A stretch of 64,000 bases of DNA from Spirochaetia bacterium (lineage in GTDB: Bacteria > Spirochaetota > Spirochaetia > DSM-16054 > Sediminispirochaetaceae): the NCBI GenBank assembly GCA_034520965.1, contig JAXHMY010000003.1, positions 256,001 to 320,000 on the forward strand, read 5' to 3'. Made by a program: the position numbers and the translations under genes. Under the pieces are notes generated by a model. That model worked only from the letters and a program-made list of their open reading frames with translations, did no database searches and was not told the DNA's origin. Shown one piece after another: positions 4,509 to 15,372 of the stretch (position 1 is the first letter of the stretch; every line of letters begins with the position of its first letter).

Positions 4509-4973
4509 ATGAGAAAAAAGCTCTGTCCGCATCTTTTAGTCGGCTTTCTTTTTGTCCTTTCCGTTTCTCATCTTTGTGCTCAGTCGAACGAAACCCTCGA
4601 CCGCTTTTTAGCGCAGGAAAGGGCCGTGTTCGGATATTCGGCCTATATGGTTCTGACTGCAGCAGGAGAACTGCCGGAGGAGGCTTCCCCGGAGGAGGCG
4701 GCTGCGGCGGTAAGCCGGATGGGATGGAAGAACAGCTTGTCGGCAAGTGACGATCTCATCAACTTAGGAGAGTATTCCTACTTGTTAATGAAGGCCTTCG
4801 ATGTACGCGGTGGCCTAATGTACACGCTGTTTCCCGGCCCCCGGTATGCCGCCCGGGAACTGAAGTACCTGCAGTGTATTCCCGGTAAGTCCACTCCCGG
4901 ACGGTCTATAAGCGGTACCGATGCGGTTCAAATTCTCGGTCGTGTTTTAGAGTGGAAGGAGGAGCGCTCATGA
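4509..4973 (+). CDS. Exported hypothetical protein
   Basis: SD GGAGG, signal peptide ending LCA-Q, ATGA overlap with next gene. Confidence 0.8.
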   Translation: MRKKLCPHLLVGFLFVLSVSHLCAQSNETLDRFLAQERAVFGYSAYMVLTAAGELPEEASPEEAAAAVSRMGWKNSLSASDDLINLGEYSYLLMKAFDVRGGLMYTLFPGPRYAARELKYLQCIPGKSTPGRSISGTDAVQILGRVLEWKEERS

Positions 4974-6268
4974 AAACCCGTGTTTCTGCCATAGGGGGCT
5001 TAATCCTGCTATTCTTCTTTTTAACCCCTCCCTTATTTTCCGAAACTGTAACCGACTGGGGAGGTTTTTTGCAGAGCACCAGCAGGGCTGCCATTCAACC
5101 GGAATACGAGTTTGACCAGGCTGTGCAAACAGGCCTTTGGCTGAGTACCGATTTTTCTGATAATTTCGGTCTCTATGCCCGGGGATCCTACATTTACAAT
5201 GAAGACCGTCCGTATTTTGCAGATATAGAGAACCTGTATGCCCGTGGGAGCTCACTGCTCGGCTCAGAGGGTGAGGAATATCTTGTTCGCTACTCCCTGG
5301 GCAGATTCCGTTTTTCCGAGTTTACCGGCTATGTACTTAACCACAACCTGGACGGTTTTCGGCTGAACTTCGAACTGCCGGCCCTCTCTTTTGAGGCCTC
5401 CGCCGGTTACACCGGCCTTACCTTTGTGCCGAGTTCATCCATATTAGTTACTCAGAGCGATTTCGACCTGCAGGAAAATGTAGCTGATCACGGGTATGAG
5501 CTTAGCTCCCCAAAGCTCATTGAAACCCTGAAAATGACTATTCCCGCAGTTGCCTTTGAGCAGGAGCTGATTCTTAACGTAGTGCTTCAGCAGGATCTGC
5601 AGCCGGAAGAAAACTTTACAAACACGGATGACCGTATACACAGTGAACACATCGGGTTCGGATTACGGGGTGGTCTTGCGCCGTCGCTGTACCAGAACCT
5701 GTTTCTTTACCTGAACCGCGGCCACGGCAAATACGCTACCGCGGCATCGTTGTTTGGCGGCGGCCTTAGCTACTACAATCAGGACTTCCTTTTTACCAGA
5801 GTTCGAGTAAGGGGGCTCTACTCCTCAGGAGATAACGATTACAACTTCTTTTACGGCGGGTACGGGGGAGAGAGAATTTCCAGCCACTTTATTACACTGT
5901 CCTCCTCTCCTCAATTCGGAATTGTTTTTTCCCCTCAAATTGGAAATATGTCCCTTGGTGAGATATCATTTTCTATGAGGCCTTTCTCCAAGACGAATAG
6001 CCGTATCCTTGAAAAGTTCCAAACAACCTTGGCGGCAATTACCTTCTTTAGAAACACCGGAGGAGTTATTTCGGAAGCGGGCATCGACCTTACATCCGAT
6101 AAATCGTATCTGGGAAGCGAAATTGACCTGTCCTTGCAATTCAGGCCCCTTTCCGATGTGGGCATAACCCTTTCCGGAGGCTTATTTTTTCCGAACGAAA
6201 AAGTTTTCATGGAAGCCTATGACAACATGAAGTCGGTGGCCCGCCTTGATGCTTCTTTCAGGTTTTAA
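4970..6268 (+). CDS. Probable outer-membrane beta-barrel protein
   Basis: Signal peptide, alternating aromatic/Gly beta-strand pattern, C-terminal ARLDASFRF (terminal Phe, BAM-signal-like). Confidence 0.7.
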   Translation: MKTRVSAIGGLILLFFFLTPPLFSETVTDWGGFLQSTSRAAIQPEYEFDQAVQTGLWLSTDFSDNFGLYARGSYIYNEDRPYFADIENLYARGSSLLGSEGEEYLVRYSLGRFRFSEFTGYVLNHNLDGFRLNFELPALSFEASAGYTGLTFVPSSSILVTQSDFDLQENVADHGYELSSPKLIETLKMTIPAVAFEQELILNVVLQQDLQPEENFTNTDDRIHSEHIGFGLRGGLAPSLYQNLFLYLNRGHGKYATAASLFGGGLSYYNQDFLFTRVRVRGLYSSGDNDYNFFYGGYGGERISSHFITLSSSPQFGIVFSPQIGNMSLGEISFSMRPFSKTNSRILEKFQTTLAAITFFRNTGGVISEAGIDLTSDKSYLGSEIDLSLQFRPLSDVGITLSGGLFFPNEKVFMEAYDNMKSVARLDASFRF

Positions 6269-6281
6269 AGTGAGGATCAAA

Positions 6282-6971
6282 ATGAGAGAATATAAAACAA
6301 TACCAATTATTTTGCTGCTTATTGCTGTGCTTCTGTTGCTCGCCGCACCGGTCTACTCGGTGAATGCAGTAATAGAGGAAACAAAGGGCAAAGTAGAGCT
6401 CAAAGCCATCGGGGGCAGCTGGCGGAAAGCGGAAGTCGGTATGGAGATTGGGCTCGGAACCACCGTTTCAACGGGTTTTAATGCCAACGCGAAAATTGCT
6501 ATCGGTGACACCGTACTGGAGGTAAAACCGCTTACCCGCATGGAGTTGGAGGAGTTAATAGAGAAAGAGGGGACCATCGACACCGAACTCAACCTAAAAG
6601 TCGGCAAGATAAAGGCAAATGTGCGTTCCTCCGCAGGGCTTCAGAACAACTTCAAGCTGCGCAGCGCCCAATCTACCGCAGCGGTGCGCGGTACGGTTTT
6701 TGTATACGACGGGTACACCTTAAGTGTGGAGCAAGGGCGAGTATCCCTAAGCAACAAGCTCGGGCAGGTACGCTCGGTAGGCAGTGGCGAACAGAGCAGT
6801 ACCGACGGCTATTCCGTACCTTCTCATGTGGAGGATGCTATTTCTTCGGTTTTTAATCTTGATCCCGGCGCGTTGGATGAGGATGCGGTTGTGGAGTTTT
6901 TAGAACAAGAGTATCCCGAATATGCAACCTTAATTCTTAAGCTGTATTGGGATTTTGGAGGAGTGGAATGA
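6282..6971 (+). CDS. Exported FecR-domain protein
   Basis: Signal peptide; STGFNANAKI and FKLRSAQSTAAVRGTVF...VEQGRVSL are typical FecR-domain motifs. Confidence 0.8.
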   Translation: MREYKTIPIILLLIAVLLLLAAPVYSVNAVIEETKGKVELKAIGGSWRKAEVGMEIGLGTTVSTGFNANAKIAIGDTVLEVKPLTRMELEELIEKEGTIDTELNLKVGKIKANVRSSAGLQNNFKLRSAQSTAAVRGTVFVYDGYTLSVEQGRVSLSNKLGQVRSVGSGEQSSTDGYSVPSHVEDAISSVFNLDPGALDEDAVVEFLEQEYPEYATLILKLYWDFGGVE

Positions 6972-8248
6972 ACAAGCAGAATTTCAATTTTGGCCGGAGA
7001 ACTTATGCACGTCCCGCCGCAGTACTTATTATGTTCCTGCTGCTGAGTGTTGTTTCTTGTTATGTAGAACCCCGGGCCGGGGCAACGGTTACTCCCCACC
7101 TTAGCTTCACGACTGCCTCGAGGGGCTTTGGAGATGTGCTCGGCAGCATAAAGCTCGATATTACCGGGCCCGGTATTGACCAGCAGTGGTTCTTCTCTGA
7201 GGAGGAGGACAGTATCGTCATTTCCCTGCCCGAGGCTGATAATGTGCGCTTTGAGGTTGAAGCCCAACTGGATACCCTGGGCGGCACCTACACCGGCCCC
7301 GTACTCTCCTACGGCGGCGTCCTGTATGCCGACCTGGTTGCTGGAAAGTCAATCAACCTAAACTTCAACATGGGCCCCTACGAAACCAAAATACTGGTCC
7401 CGGATTATTCTTTAAGTAAGTTAATACAGTTGAAAAACATGTCTATAAGTGAAAATAATCCGGTTTCTCCTGATTGGGAAGAGTCCGACCTGTCATTTTT
7501 CGAACTAGGCGCTCCATGGGATATAGAGATAGATAACTTGGGACAAATATGGATAGCTAGCGATAATTCGCTAAGTGCAATATACGAAGTACCAATAACT
7601 TATGACGAGTCAGAGTTACCTGAACTTTTGAATATTTACACAACTCCTATTTATTCACTCGCCTTCGACCGCCAAAATAACTACTTGTATTATATTCTTG
7701 ATGAGGGAAATTCCTTTTATAGCATCAATAGGATTACAACTGATTTTGATATATTAGACGTAGCTATTACCGATATTACAGAAATCAGTTCTACTGTCGT
7801 TTCTGCTACTAATACAATTTATCCATTTGGATTAGCAGTAGATGATGAGGGGTTTATCTATTTTACCGTTAATGTTGGGTCTACAACACCTCAATGGAAC
7901 CTCTATAAAATACATCCTGATTCACCGGATACAATAGAAGCATCTACCACAGAAATTACTACCAACCCCGATGCATCTCCTTACGACTATCCCGACCTAC
8001 TCTACAAGGAGGGGCATATATATGTGACGAACCGGGCAGGGCCCGACGGAGAACAAATCCTCAAACTGAACAAAGACCTTGTGCTGGTGGGCAGCTTCGG
8101 AGTTGCTGCAACTGAATTAGGAACCACTGTAGAGGGCGAGTTTTTCGGCCCTTCCCGCTTCCTTGCTTCTACCAACAAGAAAATCTATGTGATTGATGAA
8201 GCTATCGATGCACCTATAGGAGATATTACCTCAAATGAGACAATATGA
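6968..8248 (+). pseudogene. Lipoprotein (beta-propeller/NHL-like) interrupted near its 3' end by the IS110-family element
   Basis: Lipobox VVS-C; PWDIEID, PFGLAVD, FFGPSRF repeats; the TGA stop lies inside the IS left end; probable C-terminal remnant at 9732-9824. Confidence 0.7.
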
Positions 8249-8338
8249 AGTGACCCCCGTGTTTGCAAAATCGTGGATTAGCCTGCAAAATGGTAAAAAC
8301 ACAATGGCAAACACGCCACATACAAACAGGAGGCCACT

Positions 8339-9436
8339 ATGAACAGTGTAATTTATGTAGGAATGGATGTCCACAAGGAGACGGTATTCATCGTCGGGTA
8401 TAAGAATGGCGAACAGGTCCCATCGATAGTCGTTCAGAAGAAAAACAGGGAAAGTGAGCTGCGCAAATATTTTAAGAAGCTCCAGGAAAAGGGTGAGCTT
8501 CTGTGCTGCTATGAAGCAGGGCCAAGCGGTTACAGTACCTATCGGATGCTCGAAGGTATGGGCATTGCCTGTCTTGTTGCAGCCCCGGGACTGATTCCAA
8601 AAAAACCATCAGAGCGAATAAAAACCGACAAACGGGACGCCGACATGCTTGCCCGTAATTTGCGTTCCGGACAGTTGACAGGGGTTCACATTCCCACCAG
8701 AGCCGATGAGGCGGTGCGTGAGTTTCTGCACGTCAGGGATGATTACAAAGACGAGCAGAGACGCTACAAGCAGAAAATTCTCAGTCTTCTGCTTCGTCAT
8801 GGTCTGATCTACCGTGATGGGGATAATTGGACAGGAAAACACCGACTGTGGATTAAGAAAGCCATCGCAGAGCTCAACTCATTGCAGAAAGAGACTGTAA
8901 AGGAGTACCTGGGGCATCTGGACTACATCACTGAAAATATTAAACGAATCGACCAGCGCATTGAAGCCCTTGCCTCTGAAGGGCGCTATAGGGAAAAAGT
9001 GAAAAGGCTGATGGCCATTAAGGGGATTGGAACCTTTACCGCGTTATCAATCATTGCCGAAATAAGTGATTTTCGGCGATTTGCCAAGCCCTCGCAGTTC
9101 ATGAGTTATCTTGGTTTGGTACCGGCTGAACACTCCAGTGGAGAACGTCGTCGTCAGAACGGTATTACAAAATCAGGAAATAAGCGTTTGAGGCGCCTGT
9201 TGGTAGAAAGTGCCTGGCATTGTCGCACCTATGATCCCTCCTCAAAGCGACTGATAAAACGAAGACGAGAAGTAGATCCTCAGGCAAGAGCGTATGCCGA
9301 TAAAGCAGGGAAAAGACTTTCGCGGCGATATCAGCACCTTCTGTTTACAGGAAAACCTTCACAGAAGGTTGCTACGGCAGTTGCACGTGAGCTTTGCGGT
9401 TTTATTTGGGGAATAATGAGAGAACAAACAACGTAG
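8339..9436 (+). CDS. IS110-family DEDD transposase/recombinase
   Basis: VGMDVHK, CYEAGP, KTDKRDA (DEDD); GIG; YLGLVPAEHSSG (catalytic Ser); ITKSGNKRLR; VATAVAREL. Confidence 0.96.
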   Translation: MNSVIYVGMDVHKETVFIVGYKNGEQVPSIVVQKKNRESELRKYFKKLQEKGELLCCYEAGPSGYSTYRMLEGMGIACLVAAPGLIPKKPSERIKTDKRDADMLARNLRSGQLTGVHIPTRADEAVREFLHVRDDYKDEQRRYKQKILSLLLRHGLIYRDGDNWTGKHRLWIKKAIAELNSLQKETVKEYLGHLDYITENIKRIDQRIEALASEGRYREKVKRLMAIKGIGTFTALSIIAEISDFRRFAKPSQFMSYLGLVPAEHSSGERRRQNGITKSGNKRLRRLLVESAWHCRTYDPSSKRLIKRRREVDPQARAYADKAGKRLSRRYQHLLFTGKPSQKVATAVARELCGFIWGIMREQTT

Positions 9437-9456
9437 AGGTTTAACTGAGTTTTGAA

Positions 9457-9667
9457 ACCGAGGGGTAGAATGGATAGAGGAATACGAGAAGAAGCGAAGG
9501 AGAATCCTCGAGCTATTCTGAAGGCCCTCTTTTTGGTAGGAGGAATCCTTGAATTGAGACAGAGGCAAGCTCCCGACGATTACATTGCACTGCAGGTAAC
9601 CAATCCGCGAATATCAGTCTGTACATCGACGGTTGCATGTATTCCTCTATCTTTTTCTCCTCTCGGT
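9457..9667 (+). ncRNA. Predicted bridge RNA / seekRNA of the IS110-family element
   Basis: Long closing helix (ACCGAG 9457-62 with CTCGGT 9662-67; GATAGAGGAATAC 9473-85 with GTATTCCTCTATC 9639-51, perfect 13 bp); an internal loop carries CTATTCTG (9513-20) and TGAGACA (9555-61), matching the insertion flanks. Confidence 0.82.
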
Positions 9668-9731
9668 CTTATAAAGAAGGGGGTACTATAAACTTTTACT
9701 ATAGAATACTTGACAAGGGTCACAACATATC

Positions 9732-9824
9732 AGAATAGTAAGTTTTGATACCGACTTCGGCGGGTGGGATACATATATGCCGCAGGGCGTGGACAATGTC
9801 GACATTTTTAGCTTCTATTATTAA
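9732..9824 (+). pseudogene. Probable 3' remnant of the interrupted lipoprotein gene
   Basis: Reads RIVSFDTDFGGWDTYMPQGVDNVDIFSFYY*, followed by a terminator; one base out of phase with the 5' part in the reconstructed empty site. Confidence 0.55.
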
Positions 9825-10000: not shown

Positions 10001-10984
10001 ATGTCCGAACGTGACGTATCACCACCGGGACTACCTTTTTCGATAAAACCGAAATTTATAGTAACCGTGGTAATTATAGTTGTGGTCATAGCCGTGGTCA
10101 TGTCGAGTTTCTTCGTCGTTGACCAAACTGAGCAAGCAGTAGTGCTTAGGTTCGGTAAGGTGAACAGAATTGTCGGCCCGGGCCTGCAGTTTAAGGTTCC
10201 CCTGGGAATCGAAAAGAACTACAACGTAGCGACCCAGAGAGTTCAAAAAATGGAGTTTGGCTTTCGCACCCAGCAGGCAAGTATCAATACCACCTACTCC
10301 GGCGCCGACTTCCCCGAAGAGTCGATTATGCTGACCGGAGACCTTAATATAATCGATGTCGAATGGATCATTCAGTATCGGATAAGCGAGCCTGTAGATT
10401 GGCTGTTTAATGTGGAGTTTCGAGAACAGACTCTACGCGACATAAGCCAGTCGATTATCAATCAGCTGGTAGGCGACCGGGCGATACTGAATGTAATCGG
10501 TTCAGAACGAGCAAGCATCGAGCAGCAGGGCCAGGACAAAATGCAGGAGCGCTTTGACGATTACGGTCTTGGTGTCACGGTTACCACGGTCAAACTGCGA
10601 AACATCGTACCTCCGCGGGGCGAAGTACAAGACGCATTTGAAGACGTAAACCGTGCTGTTCAGGATATGAACCGTTTTATCAATGAAGGAAAAGAGGCTT
10701 ACAACCAGGAAATACCGAAAGCCCGCGGCCAGGCCCAGCAGCTGATTCAAGAAGCCCAGGGATATGCAGCCGAACGTGTAAATAATTCAGAAGGTGATGT
10801 AGCCCGCTTTGTATCGGTCCTCGACCAGTATGAGTTGAGTCCCGAGGTAACCCGCACCCGTCTCTACATCGAAACCCTTGAAGCGCTCTTCCAGGAAGAA
10901 GAAGGTACCGACCTGATCGACCGGGGACTGGAGAACTTTATTCCCTTTAAAGGCCTGCCGACAGCACAAGGAGGCACACAGTGA
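10001..10984 (+). CDS. hflK: FtsH protease modulator HflK
   Basis: SPFH domain, MLTGDLNII, IPKARGQA, VTRTRLYIET; SD AAGGAGG. Confidence 0.93.
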   Translation: MSERDVSPPGLPFSIKPKFIVTVVIIVVVIAVVMSSFFVVDQTEQAVVLRFGKVNRIVGPGLQFKVPLGIEKNYNVATQRVQKMEFGFRTQQASINTTYSGADFPEESIMLTGDLNIIDVEWIIQYRISEPVDWLFNVEFREQTLRDISQSIINQLVGDRAILNVIGSERASIEQQGQDKMQERFDDYGLGVTVTTVKLRNIVPPRGEVQDAFEDVNRAVQDMNRFINEGKEAYNQEIPKARGQAQQLIQEAQGYAAERVNNSEGDVARFVSVLDQYELSPEVTRTRLYIETLEALFQEEEGTDLIDRGLENFIPFKGLPTAQGGTQ

Positions 10985-11973
10985 AAAAATTAGTAACAAC
11001 TTTAGTAGTGCTGCTTATTATCGTGGTAGTATTCGTGCTCCTAGGCCCGTTTTACATTGTAGAACAGGGTGAACAGGCCGTTGTAACCCGCTTTGGTAAG
11101 ATAGTAACTACAAATGTCAATCCGGGCCTCAAGTTTAAAGTACCGGTTATCGACAACGTAGTAAAATACTCTAAAAAAATACTGAGTTGGGACGGAGATG
11201 CACAACGGGTGCCTACCGCGGAAAACCAGTTTATCTGGGTTGATGCCACGGCCCGCTGGAAAATTGCCGACCCCCAGAAGTTTTACGAGGCGGTTTCTAC
11301 CCTTGAACAGGGCTGGGCCCGGCTTGACGACGTTATAGATTCGACCATCCGTACGGTCATTACCAGCAACAATCTGCGGGAAGCAGTCCGTAACACCAAC
11401 ATCATCAACGAGATGGAGGCCACCACGGAAATTCTGCAGCAGCAGGATGAAGAGGTGGACGAAGAAGAGCTTCGTGAGCTGACCCAAACTGAGAGATCGT
11501 ATGAAACAGTGAATCGGGGTCGTGAAGAACTCTCCCAGGAAATGTTCGAGTTAGCGGCTGAATTAACCCCCGACTACGGCATTGAGCTGGTTGATATCAT
11601 CATGCGTCAAATACGCTACTCCGACGACCTTACCGAAAGTGTCTACAGTCGTATGATTAAAGAGCGAAACCAGATCGCCGAAGCATACCGCTCCTACGGA
11701 CAGGGGAAAAAGGCCGAGTGGCTTGGTAGACTTGAAAACGAACGTAAAACAGTCCTCTCGGAAGCGTACCAGGAGTCTGAGGGTATTCGCGGTGAGGCCG
11801 ATGCCGAGGCAACCCTGATCTACGCTGAGGCTTATGAGCAGGACCCGGAGTTCTTTGAGTTCTGGCGTTCGATCGAATCGTACCGCAAAACCATACCCAA
11901 GTTTAAGAAAACCCTTACCACCGACATGGACTACTTTAAGTATTTGTACAATGAAGACGGAACTGTCGAATAA
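10981..11973 (+). CDS. hflC: FtsH protease modulator HflC
   Basis: SPFH domain, VYSRMIKER, IRGEADAEA, DPEFFEFWRSIESY; GTGA overlap with hflK. Confidence 0.93.
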   Translation: MKKLVTTLVVLLIIVVVFVLLGPFYIVEQGEQAVVTRFGKIVTTNVNPGLKFKVPVIDNVVKYSKKILSWDGDAQRVPTAENQFIWVDATARWKIADPQKFYEAVSTLEQGWARLDDVIDSTIRTVITSNNLREAVRNTNIINEMEATTEILQQQDEEVDEEELRELTQTERSYETVNRGREELSQEMFELAAELTPDYGIELVDIIMRQIRYSDDLTESVYSRMIKERNQIAEAYRSYGQGKKAEWLGRLENERKTVLSEAYQESEGIRGEADAEATLIYAEAYEQDPEFFEFWRSIESYRKTIPKFKKTLTTDMDYFKYLYNEDGTVE

Positions 11974-12041: not shown

Positions 12042-13811
12042 TCACCCCTCAAATCGTCGGTGCCCCAGCTCTATTAAGTCCGCCAGCCCCAGTCGCAGTA
12101 TCTCCAGCTGCGATCCATCGCCCTGCAGCAGTTCCTGCAGCTTATTTACCTCTATCTCCCACTGCCGGCGGTACTTTTTGTGGGTGAATTTTTTTAGAAT
12201 GTGGAGTACTTTCTTCTGATACCGGCGTCGCTGGGCCTGGGTGTCGGCGCTGCACATGAGCCGGCGCACCACATCCAGCTCTTCCAGCCGGTCACCGCAG
12301 GCCGCCTCTTCCAGCAAAGCTTCGATCCGTTTCAATTCTGATGCTGAGAGCTTCTGTAATACATCTATCTGCGGAATCTCATGAAAGCGATATAAATTCT
12401 CGGTAGCCAACCACCCCCAGCCTTCGTTGCCCGCAAGCAGAACCTCAGCACCCCGGGTCACAAAGTTTTCGCAGAGCCGCTCCGGTACAAAAGAAGCCTG
12501 CAGCAATGCCTGGATGCGGTGAGCAGGCAGGAACCGGCCAAGATCCGGCTGACAGAAGACAGTTCGGGTGGAACTCAGCTTCTCCCGATTCCTCCCACTT
12601 TCACTGCAGCGCTCCACTACAATTTGAAACTCCGTGTTATAGGTACGGCGGTTCATGCTCTGCCGGCCGCCGCGGTAGGTTATATAATCCAGACTGTGAA
12701 TCTCCACTCGGCCGGCCCCGCTGAGAATCTCCATCAGCTGCTCCATGGGGATAATCCCCTCGCTGTTATAGCTGAGTACCAACCAACGGGCATCCGCAGC
12801 TTCCAGCACATCCCGCAGTGCCTCGGGGGCGCGTGCCCGTGAACAGAAATCCGAGCGGGTTGACTGCCAGTCCGGCCGTATCCCGGCCTTTGATACTAAT
12901 CTTCCGTCCGCCCCGATTCCATCATTTACCGGGGGAAAATCCCACCGCGCAATAGTGTTGAGCAGGTGGTAGTTGCTGCCGTACTGATGGATGTTATAAG
13001 GGGGGTCTAAATAGCAAAGGTCGCCACTGCGACGAGAGAGGAACTCGGCGGCATCCAACTGCTGCACTTCGCATTCGGCGGGGCCCTCTATCAGCACAGG
13101 ATATTCAAGCTGCATCGGTGCCATGATACGCCCCAGGGCATCACGGCTGTGACCGCCAAAGCCCTTGTGGTAGGCTTTGAACACTCCGGAGGTATTCACA
13201 TGAGTGGCCGCCTGATACAGCAGCAGGGCCAGCAGAAGCTCGTGTGCCCTGCCCCCCTCCGGAAACCACCGGTCTATATGCTCCCGTACCAGATCGATAA
13301 ACAGGGCATTCTCCCGTGTGTAGAACAGACGCTCGGTACGATAGTCTGCCTCCGCAGTGGAGGCCGGAGCGTAATGACGGCTGATCAAAGGCCGCTGCGG
13401 CTGTTTTAAGGATCGATTCCCACGCCTGCTCCGTGAATCGGGCTGCAGTGTATTAAGTTCGTCAAGGACATTTTTCAGGCCGCCAAAATCAGAAAACAGC
13501 TCCTCCGCTTGAGCAGGATTCAAGGTAAGGTGAGCGGTGTTAATGACCTTCGAATACTCCTCCCAGTCGTTGGCCGCTACCTGTAAACCCATCTGGCGAA
13601 CCATTCTGGCTACCGCTCCACTGCCGGCAAAGGGGTCGAGAACCCGGGTAATAGGGTGCTGTTCATTGAGCCGGGAGAAGATGCGGTATAAAAACCCGAG
13701 GATGCGCCTTTTGTTGCCAATGTAGGCAATTAGCTGGCGAGTAAGATAATCTGTAGAAACAAAGGCCCCATCACTTGTCGAAAGGCTGAGGGCCTGATAC
13801 CATTCCGGCAT
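12042..13811 (-). CDS. D12-class N6-adenine DNA methyltransferase with long C-terminal extension (start uncertain)
   Basis: YIGNK, LDPFAGSG (motif I), YLDPPYN (motif IV), LSYNSEG; no adjacent endonuclease. Confidence 0.85.
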   Translation of the reverse strand: MPEWYQALSLSTSDGAFVSTDYLTRQLIAYIGNKRRILGFLYRIFSRLNEQHPITRVLDPFAGSGAVARMVRQMGLQVAANDWEEYSKVINTAHLTLNPAQAEELFSDFGGLKNVLDELNTLQPDSRSRRGNRSLKQPQRPLISRHYAPASTAEADYRTERLFYTRENALFIDLVREHIDRWFPEGGRAHELLLALLLYQAATHVNTSGVFKAYHKGFGGHSRDALGRIMAPMQLEYPVLIEGPAECEVQQLDAAEFLSRRSGDLCYLDPPYNIHQYGSNYHLLNTIARWDFPPVNDGIGADGRLVSKAGIRPDWQSTRSDFCSRARAPEALRDVLEAADARWLVLSYNSEGIIPMEQLMEILSGAGRVEIHSLDYITYRGGRQSMNRRTYNTEFQIVVERCSESGRNREKLSSTRTVFCQPDLGRFLPAHRIQALLQASFVPERLCENFVTRGAEVLLAGNEGWGWLATENLYRFHEIPQIDVLQKLSASELKRIEALLEEAACGDRLEELDVVRRLMCSADTQAQRRRYQKKVLHILKKFTHKKYRRQWEIEVNKLQELLQGDGSQLEILRLGLADLIELGHRRFEG

Positions 13812-15372
13812 GACCGGAAAGAGACTAACAGCTTTACTTGCAAAGATCAATATAATTGAACAACACGGACCTTCCGATCCACCGATTACCGACCTTGTCT
13901 ATGACAGCCGCGAGGTACAGCAGGGCAGCCTGTTTTTTGCCTTGAAGGGGCTGCATAGCGACGGCCACGACTACATAGAAAAGGCGCTTGCCCAAGGTGC
14001 TGCAGCAGTGGTCCACAGCGATCCCCTTCCCCGCTACGCCCGGGGTGTGGCTTACCTGCGGGTAGAGAACAGCCGCAGGGCTATGTCTCCAATTGCCTGC
14101 AGCTTTTACGATGATCCCTCTTCAGAAATGACGATTATCGGGGTAACCGGAACCGACGGAAAAAGTACTACCAGCTACTTTATCCAGCAGCTGCTGCAGT
14201 TAAGCGGCAAACCCGCGGGGCTGCTTACTACAGTTCAATTTGATTTAGGCCGGGGAGCAGAGAAAAACTATCTGCGCCAATCAACCCCCGAGGCCACCGA
14301 AATACACCGGCTCCTGCGCGCCATGCGGGAGAATGGTTGCACCCACGCGGTGGTCGAGGCCACCAGCCACGGCCTCTCGCCCCTGAACAACCGCCTTGGG
14401 GATGTAAAGTTTGATGTAGGGGTACTCACCAACATCAGCCACGAACACCTGGAGTTTCATAAAACCCTCGAACGGTATATCGACGACAAGGCAAATCTGT
14501 TTCGGGCTCTTCCGCCGGAGACGGGCATTGCCGTTATCAATGCCGAGGAGCCCCACCGTCAGGCCTTTATCGATGCCGCCGCCTGTCCCGTGTATTTCTA
14601 TGGAATAAGCCCGGGAGCACAAGAGCCCCCGGGAACAGCCGACCTCACCGCCTCGGAGATTGAAGAGAGCCCGGCGGGGCAATCCTTCTTTATCAGCCGT
14701 AAAACAAGTGCTGCAGACACTGCAGAAGAACCGATTCAAACCCGTGTTAAGCTGCCCCAACCGGGCCGTTTTAATGTGGAAAACAGCTTAGCCGCTTTGC
14801 TGGCCCTAGGGCATCTGCCCGGAGAATCCCTGCAGTCCTATTTTCCCCTCATTGCAGAACTCAAACCTATCAAAGGACGCATGGTGCCGGTGGATGAAGG
14901 CCAGCCCTTTCAGGTTATTGTCGATTACGCCCACACTCCCGGCTCATTCCGCAAATTGTTTCCTGCCCTGCGTGCCCAAGTTGATACAGGCAAACTTATT
15001 GCTGTCTTTAGCTCCGCCGGCGAGCGAGATATTGAAAAACGCAGCCAGTTAGGCGAAATTGCCGCTGCCTACTGTGATATCATTGTGCTGGCCGATGAAG
15101 ACCCCCGCGGAGAGGTTCCGCTGGATATTCTGGAAGATGTAGCCGCCGGCTGCGGGTCTATGCAGCGGGAACATGAGCTATTTTTAATAGAGGATCGGCC
15201 TACGGCAATTCGCTACGCATTTACACTGGCGAACAAGGGTGATTTGGTAGTACTATTAGGAAAGGGCCACGAGGGCAGTATTATATATGCGGATGGCCCC
15301 ATCCCCTGGGATGAGGAAACAGTTGCTCGGGAGCAGCTGCGCCGGCTCGGTTACAAGCCCCTTAATCAATAA
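13810..15372 (+). CDS. murE: UDP-MurNAc-tripeptide synthetase MurE
   Basis: DSR, GVTGTDGKSTT, STPE, HEHLEFH, VDYAHTP, DEDPRGE, GKGHE. Confidence 0.95.
   Translation: MTGKRLTALLAKINIIEQHGPSDPPITDLVYDSREVQQGSLFFALKGLHSDGHDYIEKALAQGAAAVVHSDPLPRYARGVAYLRVENSRRAMSPIACSFYDDPSSEMTIIGVTGTDGKSTTSYFIQQLLQLSGKPAGLLTTVQFDLGRGAEKNYLRQSTPEATEIHRLLRAMRENGCTHAVVEATSHGLSPLNNRLGDVKFDVGVLTNISHEHLEFHKTLERYIDDKANLFRALPPETGIAVINAEEPHRQAFIDAAACPVYFYGISPGAQEPPGTADLTASEIEESPAGQSFFISRKTSAADTAEEPIQTRVKLPQPGRFNVENSLAALLALGHLPGESLQSYFPLIAELKPIKGRMVPVDEGQPFQVIVDYAHTPGSFRKLFPALRAQVDTGKLIAVFSSAGERDIEKRSQLGEIAAAYCDIIVLADEDPRGEVPLDILEDVAAGCGSMQREHELFLIEDRPTAIRYAFTLANKGDLVVLLGKGHEGSIIYADGPIPWDEETVAREQLRRLGYKPLNQ

What the first reader, a model, noticed from the sequence alone, without database searches (positions are those of the whole stretch)
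8241..9740. IS110/IS1111-type recombinase with a readable bridge RNA whose guides match its own insertion site
Seen: removing 8243-9730 and one flanking CA gives the empty target TGAGA-CA-GAATAG. The ~290-bp non-coding right end forms a large structure closed by ACCGAG/CTCGGT and a perfect 13-bp helix (9473-85 / 9639-51). Inside is an internal loop bounded by CCTC(9506-09)/GAGG(9562-65) and AAGG(9521-24)/CCTT(9547-50). One loop strand, CTATTCTG (9513-20), is the exact reverse complement of CA-GAATAG. The other, TGAGACA (9555-61), is identical to TGAGA-CA, so both include the CA core. A second stem-loop (9577-9628) contains ATATCA (9611-16), matching the predicted circle junction ...ACATAT-CA-ATATG..., and a weaker ATTG (9584-87). 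Established: IS110-family elements use bridge/seek RNAs, and the IS1111 group carries them downstream of the transposase. Inference: this is an intact, potentially reprogrammable spirochaetal RNA-guided recombinase with a CA core, ~13-bp target, and inverted repeats directly abutting the core.
Basis: partly seen in the sequence, partly recalled or inferred. Interest (0 to 1): 0.88.

Follow-up and report, generated by a model that had tools for sequence, protein, structure and literature searches.

The report
RNA-guided jumping gene targeting mini-transposon ends
This is an intact copy of a known kind of bacterial jumping gene that uses its own RNA to choose where to land; it normally lands in the ends of small repeated elements, and here it landed in and broke an ordinary gene.

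Summary
The element is real: an intact IS110-family, IS1111-type insertion sequence (8240-9731; 365-aa transposase, 44% identical to ISEc45) with a bridge/seek RNA in its right end. The core is AG, not CA. Both CAs belong to the element, and the true target is AAAATG-AG-AATAGCT, 8 nt inside the end of a ~142-bp MITE with 9-bp target duplications, where the other two copies sit. In relatives, the 5' guide matches its own target at 4.8 of 6 positions against 2.1 for other targets (33 elements), and the 3' guide at 2.9 of 4 against 1.3 (30 elements); 0 of 100,000 permutations reach either value. The donor guide follows the donor in 34 of 34. Read on the opposite strand, the layout is that of IS621: CT core, long and short guide, handshake dinucleotide. 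The window copy interrupts a host gene, and a 5-nt unit appears to be missing at the site. RNA expression and activity are not shown. Earlier scan notes hold no look-alike of this protein, only related relics elsewhere. New member of a known kind.

The parts
6947..8239 (+). 5' part of the interrupted host gene (no Pfam or NCBIfam hit); its frame runs into the element and stops at 8248
   Evidence: uninterrupted homologues in 9 of 16 other genomes of the family continue into the piece at 9732
8238..8239 (+). Left copy of the core dinucleotide AG (CT on the other strand); supplied by the donor
   Evidence: AG at 52 of 53 left junctions; empty versus filled sites
8240..8338 (+). Left non-coding end; its first two bases (AC) match the predicted handshake dinucleotide of the RNA
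8245..8256 (+). Left subterminal inverted repeat (12 bp, 10 of 12 pair; extends 2 bp outward to 8243 in this element)
   Evidence: I9; first three positions pair in 26 of 26 usable relatives, the two outer ones in 17 of 26
8339..9436 (+). IS110-family DEDD transposase/recombinase, 365 aa, open frame, D10/E59/D97/D100 and S267-G268 present
   Evidence: PF01548 + PF02371 over cut-off, NF033542 252.6 bits vs cut-off 140, alignment
9457..9667 (+). Predicted bridge/seek RNA, closed by a long outer helix (9457-9485 with 9639-9667)
9499..9573 (+). Target-binding arm: helices GGAG/CTCC, CCTC/GAGG, AGG/CCT around an internal loop
   Evidence: 87-89% of cells paired, two-sided changes in each helix, 22 sequences
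9511..9519 (+). 5' target guide AGCTATT-CT: pairs with the top strand of core + right target (AG-AATAGCT); equivalent of the IS621 left target guide on the opposite strand
   Evidence: 4.79/6 own vs 2.12 other, 33 elements; thinned 4.66 vs 2.23, 19 elements
9553..9560 (+). 3' target guide ATTG-AG plus handshake dinucleotide AC (9559-60) that matches the first two bases of the element's left end
   Evidence: 2.85/4 own vs 1.30 other, 30 elements; handshake base 1 equals donor base in 31 of 31 including 3 T/T cases, base 2 in 23 of 31
9574..9631 (+). Donor-binding arm with inner hairpin 9591-9609; ATTG 9584-87 is a possible but unproven second donor guide
   Evidence: inner hairpin 93-97% paired, closing helix 74%; alignment A1
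9611..9617 (+). Donor guide ATATC-AG, identical to the last five bases of the right end plus core
   Evidence: base next to the core equals the donor base in 34 of 34 elements, 6 of them not C; core AA in guide and DNA in L059
9710..9715 (+). TTGACA -35 box; with the left end joined it lies 17 nt before GACAAT (4 of 6 of -10 consensus): predicted junction promoter
   Evidence: at least 5 of 6 at this spacing in 21 of 34 elements
9717..9728 (+). Right subterminal inverted repeat, followed by the 3-nt extension ATC (9729-31)
9732..9733 (+). Right copy of the core AG; supplied by the target
   Evidence: right junctions AG 48, AA 7, AT 1 of 56; G335 empty sites carry AA as do its right junctions
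9732..9824 (+). 3' part of the interrupted host gene (30 codons and stop)

Best explanation
An autonomous IS1111-type member of the IS110 family. Inferred cycle: the ends are joined across an AG core to give CATATC-AG-ACAATATG, which completes a promoter for the transposase and the downstream RNA. The RNA's first loop pairs with both strands of the target (5' guide with core + 5-7 nt of right target on the top strand, 3' guide with 2-4 nt of left target + core on the bottom strand). The second loop pairs with ATATC-AG of the donor. The DEDD/serine enzyme exchanges strands at the core. The geometry is that of IS621 read on the opposite strand (core CT; long guide first, short guide plus handshake second), so the strand kept is cut such that the right junction retains the target's core and the left junction the donor's. 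Its usual target is the terminal repeat of a ~142-bp MITE family. The window copy went into a look-alike site in a host gene. Shown from sequence: boundaries, core, target, guide-target and guide-donor co-variation, which junction keeps which core. Inferred from IS621 and other characterised members: RNA expression and binding, circle, promoter, chemistry.
For: Three full copies in the genome, two 8 nt inside a MITE end. A 9-bp duplication flanks MITE plus element, and the length gain is 1492 + 2; short-read contigs give the third copy's right junction and duplication. Guides co-vary with targets. A 97%-identical element (L032) changes one guide base together with its target base. Donor guide and handshake base follow the donor. 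In G335 two empty sites in the same repeat read TT-AA-ACCGC while five filled sites have AG left and AA right, as expected if IS621's cut 3' of the core (PMC11208158 passages) acts on the opposite strand. RNA helices co-vary (19 of 32 pairs with two-sided changes, 0 of 500 shuffles, slid controls 38-57% vs 85% paired). G234 relatives also sit in MITE-like ends with 9-bp duplications, 5 of 5.
Against: No expression or activity data. The guide loop is not in the minimum-energy fold, and RNAalifold recovered only the inner hairpin. The elements are related, so the permutation tests overstate. The 3' guide fits poorly in some relatives (0-1 of 4 in L086, L089, L090) and has one mismatch to all three sites here. 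The 5' donor segment shows no clear co-variation, and no donor-loop handshake with the target was seen (by eye). The core-segregation argument has observed empty sites in one genome only (G335); L052 and L089 show the same pattern without empty sites. The window site does not fit a clean insertion into an intact gene.
Confidence: 0.85

Rival explanations
1. One reading: CA core, element 8243-9730, 13-bp target TGAGACAGAATAG, repeats abutting the core.
For: CA lies at both ends of all three copies and of most relatives (left 30 of 31, right 28 of 34). At the window site the pre-insertion allele probably did hold CAGAATAG.
Against: The target is absent from the genome. Empty MITE ends lack CA. 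The length gain is 1494, not 1490. The C varies with the donor guide in 6 elements.
Confidence: 0.03
2. seekRNA-type action: only the target loop matters in vivo (a processed ~75-nt RNA from 9499-9573), and the donor is recognised mainly by protein binding to the subterminal repeats.
For: Short target-only RNAs dominate and support movement in ISEc11, ISPa11 and ISKpn4 (PMC11187229) and are 90% of bound RNA in CazIS110-1. Only one donor guide is supported here, and the repeats are long and conserved.
Against: The donor guide tracks the donor base in 34 of 34 elements, including 6 changes and a core change, so the donor loop is under selection. CazIS110-1 needs the full RNA for complete transposition.
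Confidence: 0.25
3. For the window site only: the missing 5-nt unit was lost by replication slippage in the short tandem AGAAC/AGAAT, before or after an ordinary insertion, not by the recombinase joining the two ends at two different AG cores.
For: The inferred empty allele holds a near-tandem 5-nt repeat; losing one unit gives either a perfect canonical target or the observed junctions (inference).
Against: It needs two events at the same few bases. Half-match and sequential end-transfer routes are reported for IS621 and CazIS110-1, although those passages do not describe such a deletion.
Confidence: 0.5
4. MITE-end preference comes partly from DNA structure (the 40-bp palindrome beside the site), not from base pairing alone.
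For: Both MITE insertions are next to a perfect hairpin. A target stem-loop adds specificity for ISPpu10 (abstract only).
Against: The window site has no such palindrome in the 60 bases read upstream. 9 of the 12 TGAGAATAGCT sites lie in MITE-like ends by my reading of the flanks, so sequence alone enriches for them.
Confidence: 0.3

Closest known systems
ISEc45 / ISSso6 / ISCARN28 / ISSfr2 clade (IS110 family; labelled IS1111 in the source data of PMC11187229)
   Same: Transposase 44% identical to ISEc45 and 37% to ISSso6 over 98-99% of its length. ISCARN28 is 43.5% identical to ISEc45 and is one of six elements whose bridge RNA was drawn by Durrant et al. (legend).
   Different: Different host group, guides and target. 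I could not see the ISCARN28 figure, so whether core, guide order and handshake were assigned there as here is unknown. No experimental study of ISEc45 appeared in 12 papers naming it (listing only).
ISEc11, ISPa11, ISKpn4, ISPst6 (IS1111 seekRNA elements, Siddiquee et al. 2024)
   Same: Downstream non-coding region, top-strand match before bottom-strand match, 11-13 bp subterminal repeats with 7 + 3 extensions, junction promoter, natural reprogramming between relatives.
   Different: The transposase is longer (365 vs 330-350 aa) and distant (ISEc45-clade proteins are about 20-25% identical to these). A donor guide and a handshake dinucleotide are evident here; the parts of that paper I read describe target matches only.
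IS621 and ISCro4 bridge recombinases
   Same: DEDD + serine enzyme, two-loop RNA, dinucleotide core that reads CT on one strand, long guide + short extendable guide + 2-nt handshake, repeat-element targets.
   Different: RNA upstream in IS621, downstream here. Target and donor are read in the opposite polarity relative to the gene. Sequence similarity is limited to the C-terminal domain (E 2e-8).
IS4321 / IS5075
   Same: [quoted passage not shown]
   Different: Their target is Tn21-family transposon ends; here it is a non-autonomous ~142-bp MITE. Only 27% identity over residues 14-292.
IS1533 of Leptospira
   Same: Same transposase motifs by eye in the supplement rows; spirochaete host.
   Different: Identity was not computed; ends and RNA were not compared.

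Membership tests
IS110 family | N-terminal DEDD RuvC domain (PF01548) and C-terminal PF02371 domain with conserved serine | tested here: met
IS110 family | Short core shared by target and donor; site- and orientation-specific insertion | tested here: met
   AG core, empty versus filled sites
IS110 family | Circular intermediate with junction promoter | not testable with these tools
   Promoter predicted only; no circle joint in the contigs of the 4 runs laid, which cannot show absence
Bridge/seek RNA systems | Internal loop with two guides pairing with opposite strands of the target and co-varying with it | tested here: met
Bridge/seek RNA systems | Donor-binding loop with two guides | tested here: inconclusive
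   3' guide co-varies in 34 of 34; the ATTG segment is conserved but does not follow left-end variants
Bridge/seek RNA systems | Handshake dinucleotide pairing with the non-cognate DNA | tested here: met
   Target loop: base 1 in 31 of 31 (3 T/T cases, all in one subclade), base 2 in 23 of 31. None seen for the donor loop
Bridge/seek RNA systems | RNA is made, binds the protein and is required for recombination | not testable with these tools
   No reads for this; needs small-RNA-seq or pull-down
IS1111 group | Long non-coding region downstream of the transposase gene | tested here: met
   left end 99 nt, right end 295 nt
IS1111 group | Subterminal inverted repeats of 11-13 bp with 7-nt left and 3-nt right extensions | tested here: met
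   12 bp, 10 of 12 paired; extensions AGACAAT (core counted left) and ATC; the repeat starts there in 26 of 26 usable relatives, though 17 of them extend 2 bp further out (definition)
IS1111 group | Top-strand match lies 5' of the bottom-strand match in the RNA | tested here: met
   9511-19 precedes 9553-58 (definition)
IS1111 group | Transposase related over its full length to the core IS1111 cluster (typically 330-350 aa) | tested here: inconclusive
   365 aa; 27% to IS4321 over 14-292; its clade is labelled IS1111 by Siddiquee et al. but is about 20-25% identical to the core cluster; no tree was built

The most novel reading that the evidence does not exclude
The 'reversed' guide order of IS1111-type elements is the IS621 mechanism acting in opposite polarity, with the same CT core and the same handshake. 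This clade shows it in natural sequences: mismatched cores segregate to the predicted junction. In addition, the window copy would be a natural record of the two ends being joined at two different cores 5 nt apart, and the lineage tracks variants of a MITE terminal repeat by single-base guide changes.
Probability: 0.3. Interest if true: 0.6.

Novelty: new member of a known kind. Interest (0 to 1): 0.4.

Why it matters
It gives correct design rules (AG core, guide positions, handshake, donor) for an uncharacterised, apparently active bridge recombinase from a clade without published experiments that I could find. It also gives a direct test of a question left open by Siddiquee et al., whether IS1111 and IS110 elements select targets by different mechanics: the data here predict the same mechanics on opposite strands. 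As biology it is one more case of an IS1111 element sheltering in the ends of another mobile element. The class itself is well known, and about 32,000 bridge RNAs have been mined.

Tried and rejected
Single-protein scans of genome contigs and metagenome contigs gave only 1 and 2 loci; relatives came from the genome search instead. Rfam: 3 matches at E 0.76-2.2, all far below gathering scores. RNAalifold on 22 sequences found only the inner hairpin; the helices were then named by hand from the window sequence and counted, which favours them over slid controls. Two hand registers for the donor-arm helix were wrong before the majority register was used. No autonomous partner of the MITE was found in this 86%-complete genome or at 12 ends examined in 3 other genomes. 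A metatranscriptome run (X19, share 0.06) has a 241-nt contig over 9439-9681 from a variant element, but also contigs over the coding region, and DNA may be present: not counted as expression. The G335 pattern count alone (3 vs controls 3 and 6) was not above chance; only the repeat context of 2 of the 3 sites was used. Earlier scan notes: nothing by sequence or place. No structure or complex prediction was run.

Full report
Observation. The ORF 8339-9436 encodes a 365-aa IS110-family transposase: PF01548 and PF02371 over cut-off, NF033542 at 252.6 bits, with D10, E59, D97, D100 and S267 in place. The right end folds at z -2.58. The proposed guide loop is not in the minimum-energy fold; enforcing it costs about 7 kcal/mol. 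Rfam has no family for it.

Other copies overturn the junction. The genome holds two more full copies (C2, C9) and one fragment. Both full copies follow the same 135-bp left flank, a repeat with 37 hits of 85 bp or more. Pairing its ends gave 51 pairs, 40 with a flanking duplication, 37 of them 9 bp: a ~142-bp MITE (the term is my label from terminal repeats plus duplications). Empty copies end in AAAATGAGAATAGCTG and variants, whereas TGAGACAGAATAG has no exact match in the genome. The filled C2 copy spans 1636 bp between its 9-bp duplications, 1494 more than an empty one: a 1492-bp element (8240-9731) plus 2 bp. So both CAs are element sequence.

The core is AG. From 105 loci held at that point I took 35 distinct elements with an alignable RNA, 34-100% identical in the best protein segment. 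Left out: L002 (target loop deleted), the L004 group (RNA region absent), L037 (RNA rearranged), and loci without a usable right end (L007, L009, L019/L101, L057, L060, L091, L094). Left junctions read AG in 52 of 53 and AA in 1; right junctions AG in 48, AA in 7, AT in 1 of 56; the next base on the right is variable. With the core counted in the left end, the extensions outside the 12-bp repeats are 7 and 3 nt, the IS1111 rule given in PMC11187229. The repeat starts at that point in 26 of 26 usable elements (8 of 34 rows dropped: 4 without a left end, 4 mis-located by my script).

Guides co-vary with targets. Guide positions were taken from alignment columns without looking at targets; two registers were allowed for the 5' guide, for own and shuffled pairs alike. 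The 5' guide matched its own right target at 4.79 of 6 against 2.12 (33 elements), and the 3' guide its left target at 2.85 of 4 against 1.30 (30 elements); none of 100,000 permutations reached either. Thinned to 19 elements with distinct targets the first result held (4.66 vs 2.23). Kinship inflates these tests, and the 3' guide fails in L086, L089 and L090. L032, 97% identical in protein, has one guide base changed along with its target base. The donor guide ATATC-AG follows the donor's last base in 34 of 34, 6 of them not C, and in L059 the core is AA in DNA and in the guides. The ATTG segment does not follow left-end variants and stays unproven. The named helices pair in 85% of cells with 19 of 32 pairs changing on both sides.

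Same geometry as IS621, opposite strand. In IS621 the core is CT, the target has 9 programmable positions, the right guide pairs 4 bp (extendable to 7), a handshake dinucleotide next to it pairs with the donor after exchange, and top strands are cut 3' of the core (passages of PMC11208160; PMC11208158). Reversed, this element reads: core CT; first guide AGCTATT-CT, with match rates 0.96, 0.97, 0.93, 0.83, 0.68, 0.41, 0.26 outward; second guide strong at two positions (0.87, 0.89) and weaker beyond (0.61, 0.48); then AC, equal to the donor's first base in 31 of 31 (T in both in 3 related elements) and second in 23 of 31. The model predicts that the right junction keeps the target's core. In G335, five filled sites have AG left and AA right, and two empty sites of the same repeat have AA. 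Siddiquee et al. noted the reversed order and left open whether the mechanics differ. I did not find this reading stated in searches or in the passages read, but their 7 + 3 convention already puts the core in the left end, and I could not see the figure in which Durrant et al. draw ISCARN28.

The window site. The element splits a gene: 6947-8239 continues at 9732 with 30 codons that align with the C-termini of homologues. Homologues read S-N-G-N-R-I-V or similar, and a close relative's contig bridges the site as N-E-N-R-I-V (X19, 2 differences in 66 bases). The pre-insertion allele was therefore probably AAATG-AG-AAC-AG-AATAG, and 5 nt are missing relative to a clean insertion. Short-read contigs of run X1 carry both window junctions without differences (possibly the source sample, so a check on assembly only). 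Either the ends were joined at two cores, or slippage removed one 5-nt unit before or after. Half-match and sequential-transfer routes are reported (10.64898/2026.08.31.748434; 10.1101/2025.10.25.684509), but the passages read do not describe this deletion. The frameshifts in the C2 and C9 copies are not seen in X1's contigs over 8354-9738 and may be assembly errors; contigs drop rare variants, so this is not settled.

Placement. The nearest named relatives are ISEc45 (44%) and ISSso6 (37%), labelled IS1111 with ISCARN28 in the source data of PMC11187229. IS4321 matches at 27% over part of the protein, IS621 and ISCro4 only in the C-terminal domain. At least 5432 proteins match at E 1e-60. This is a new member of a known kind.

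What I saw of each paper. PMC11208160: passages, a supplement search and the file list (one file unreadable, Table 5 not reached). PMC11187229: parts 1-3 of 9, passages, supplement searches and part 1 of supplement 1. PMC11208158, PMC13604230, PMC13626964, 10.1101/2024.01.24.577089: passages. 10.1101/2025.10.25.684509: parts 1-3 of 5. 10.64898/2026.08.31.748434: part 1 of 6 and passages. 10.64898/2026.10.21.760802: passages and section 8. 10.64898/2026.03.19.712850: abstract. Partridge and Hall 2003: title only. bioRxiv supplements were closed and figures are not held; both may bear on the novelty of the polarity reading.

Noticed in passing
G000, e.g. C1:52575-52715, C2:217479-217620: A ~142-bp MITE family (about 40 copies with 8-10 bp duplications, mostly 9; CAG...CTG ends; two internal palindromes). 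No autonomous partner found. The end pattern also occurs in 3 of 150 other genomes of the class.
   Followed up: partly
window 9514 and 9554; runs X3, X19; L032: Variant elements change the guide at 9514 (T to G or A), which matches other MITE end variants (AATCGCTG, AATTGCTG); X3 also changes 9554 to a perfect match and sits after a MITE-like flank.
   Followed up: partly
G000:C2:545716-545869: A 154-bp fragment of the element (gene end plus 5' half of the RNA, with the 5' guide only) fused to a piece of another transposase gene that also occurs near C3:63702 (IS21-like by recall).
   Followed up: partly
L079-L083, L107, L108 (G335:C1:725-848 kb): Relatives insert into a clustered repeat that looks like integron cassette recombination sites (recalled resemblance, not tested).
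   Followed up: no
L002, L004/L020/L026 (G002, G036, G026): Defective relatives: one lacks the target-binding arm, others lack the whole RNA region yet keep both ends and sit at AG-AATTGCT sites, which suggests mobilisation in trans or later decay.
   Followed up: no
L086, L087, L088, L102: A distant subgroup has hairpin insertions of varying length between the two target guides and a CA rather than CT core guide.
   Followed up: no
L131, L132 (G000:C1:858622, C1:49067): Two further, unrelated and broken IS110-family transposase genes in the genome (PF02371 over cut-off, internal stop).
   Followed up: no
window 4952-8248, 10001-11973, 12042-13850: Neighbours: an unannotated ORF, a FecR/LipL45-like ORF and the interrupted gene form a likely operon; hflK-hflC follow; a D12-class adenine methyltransferase lies on the minus strand.
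   Followed up: no
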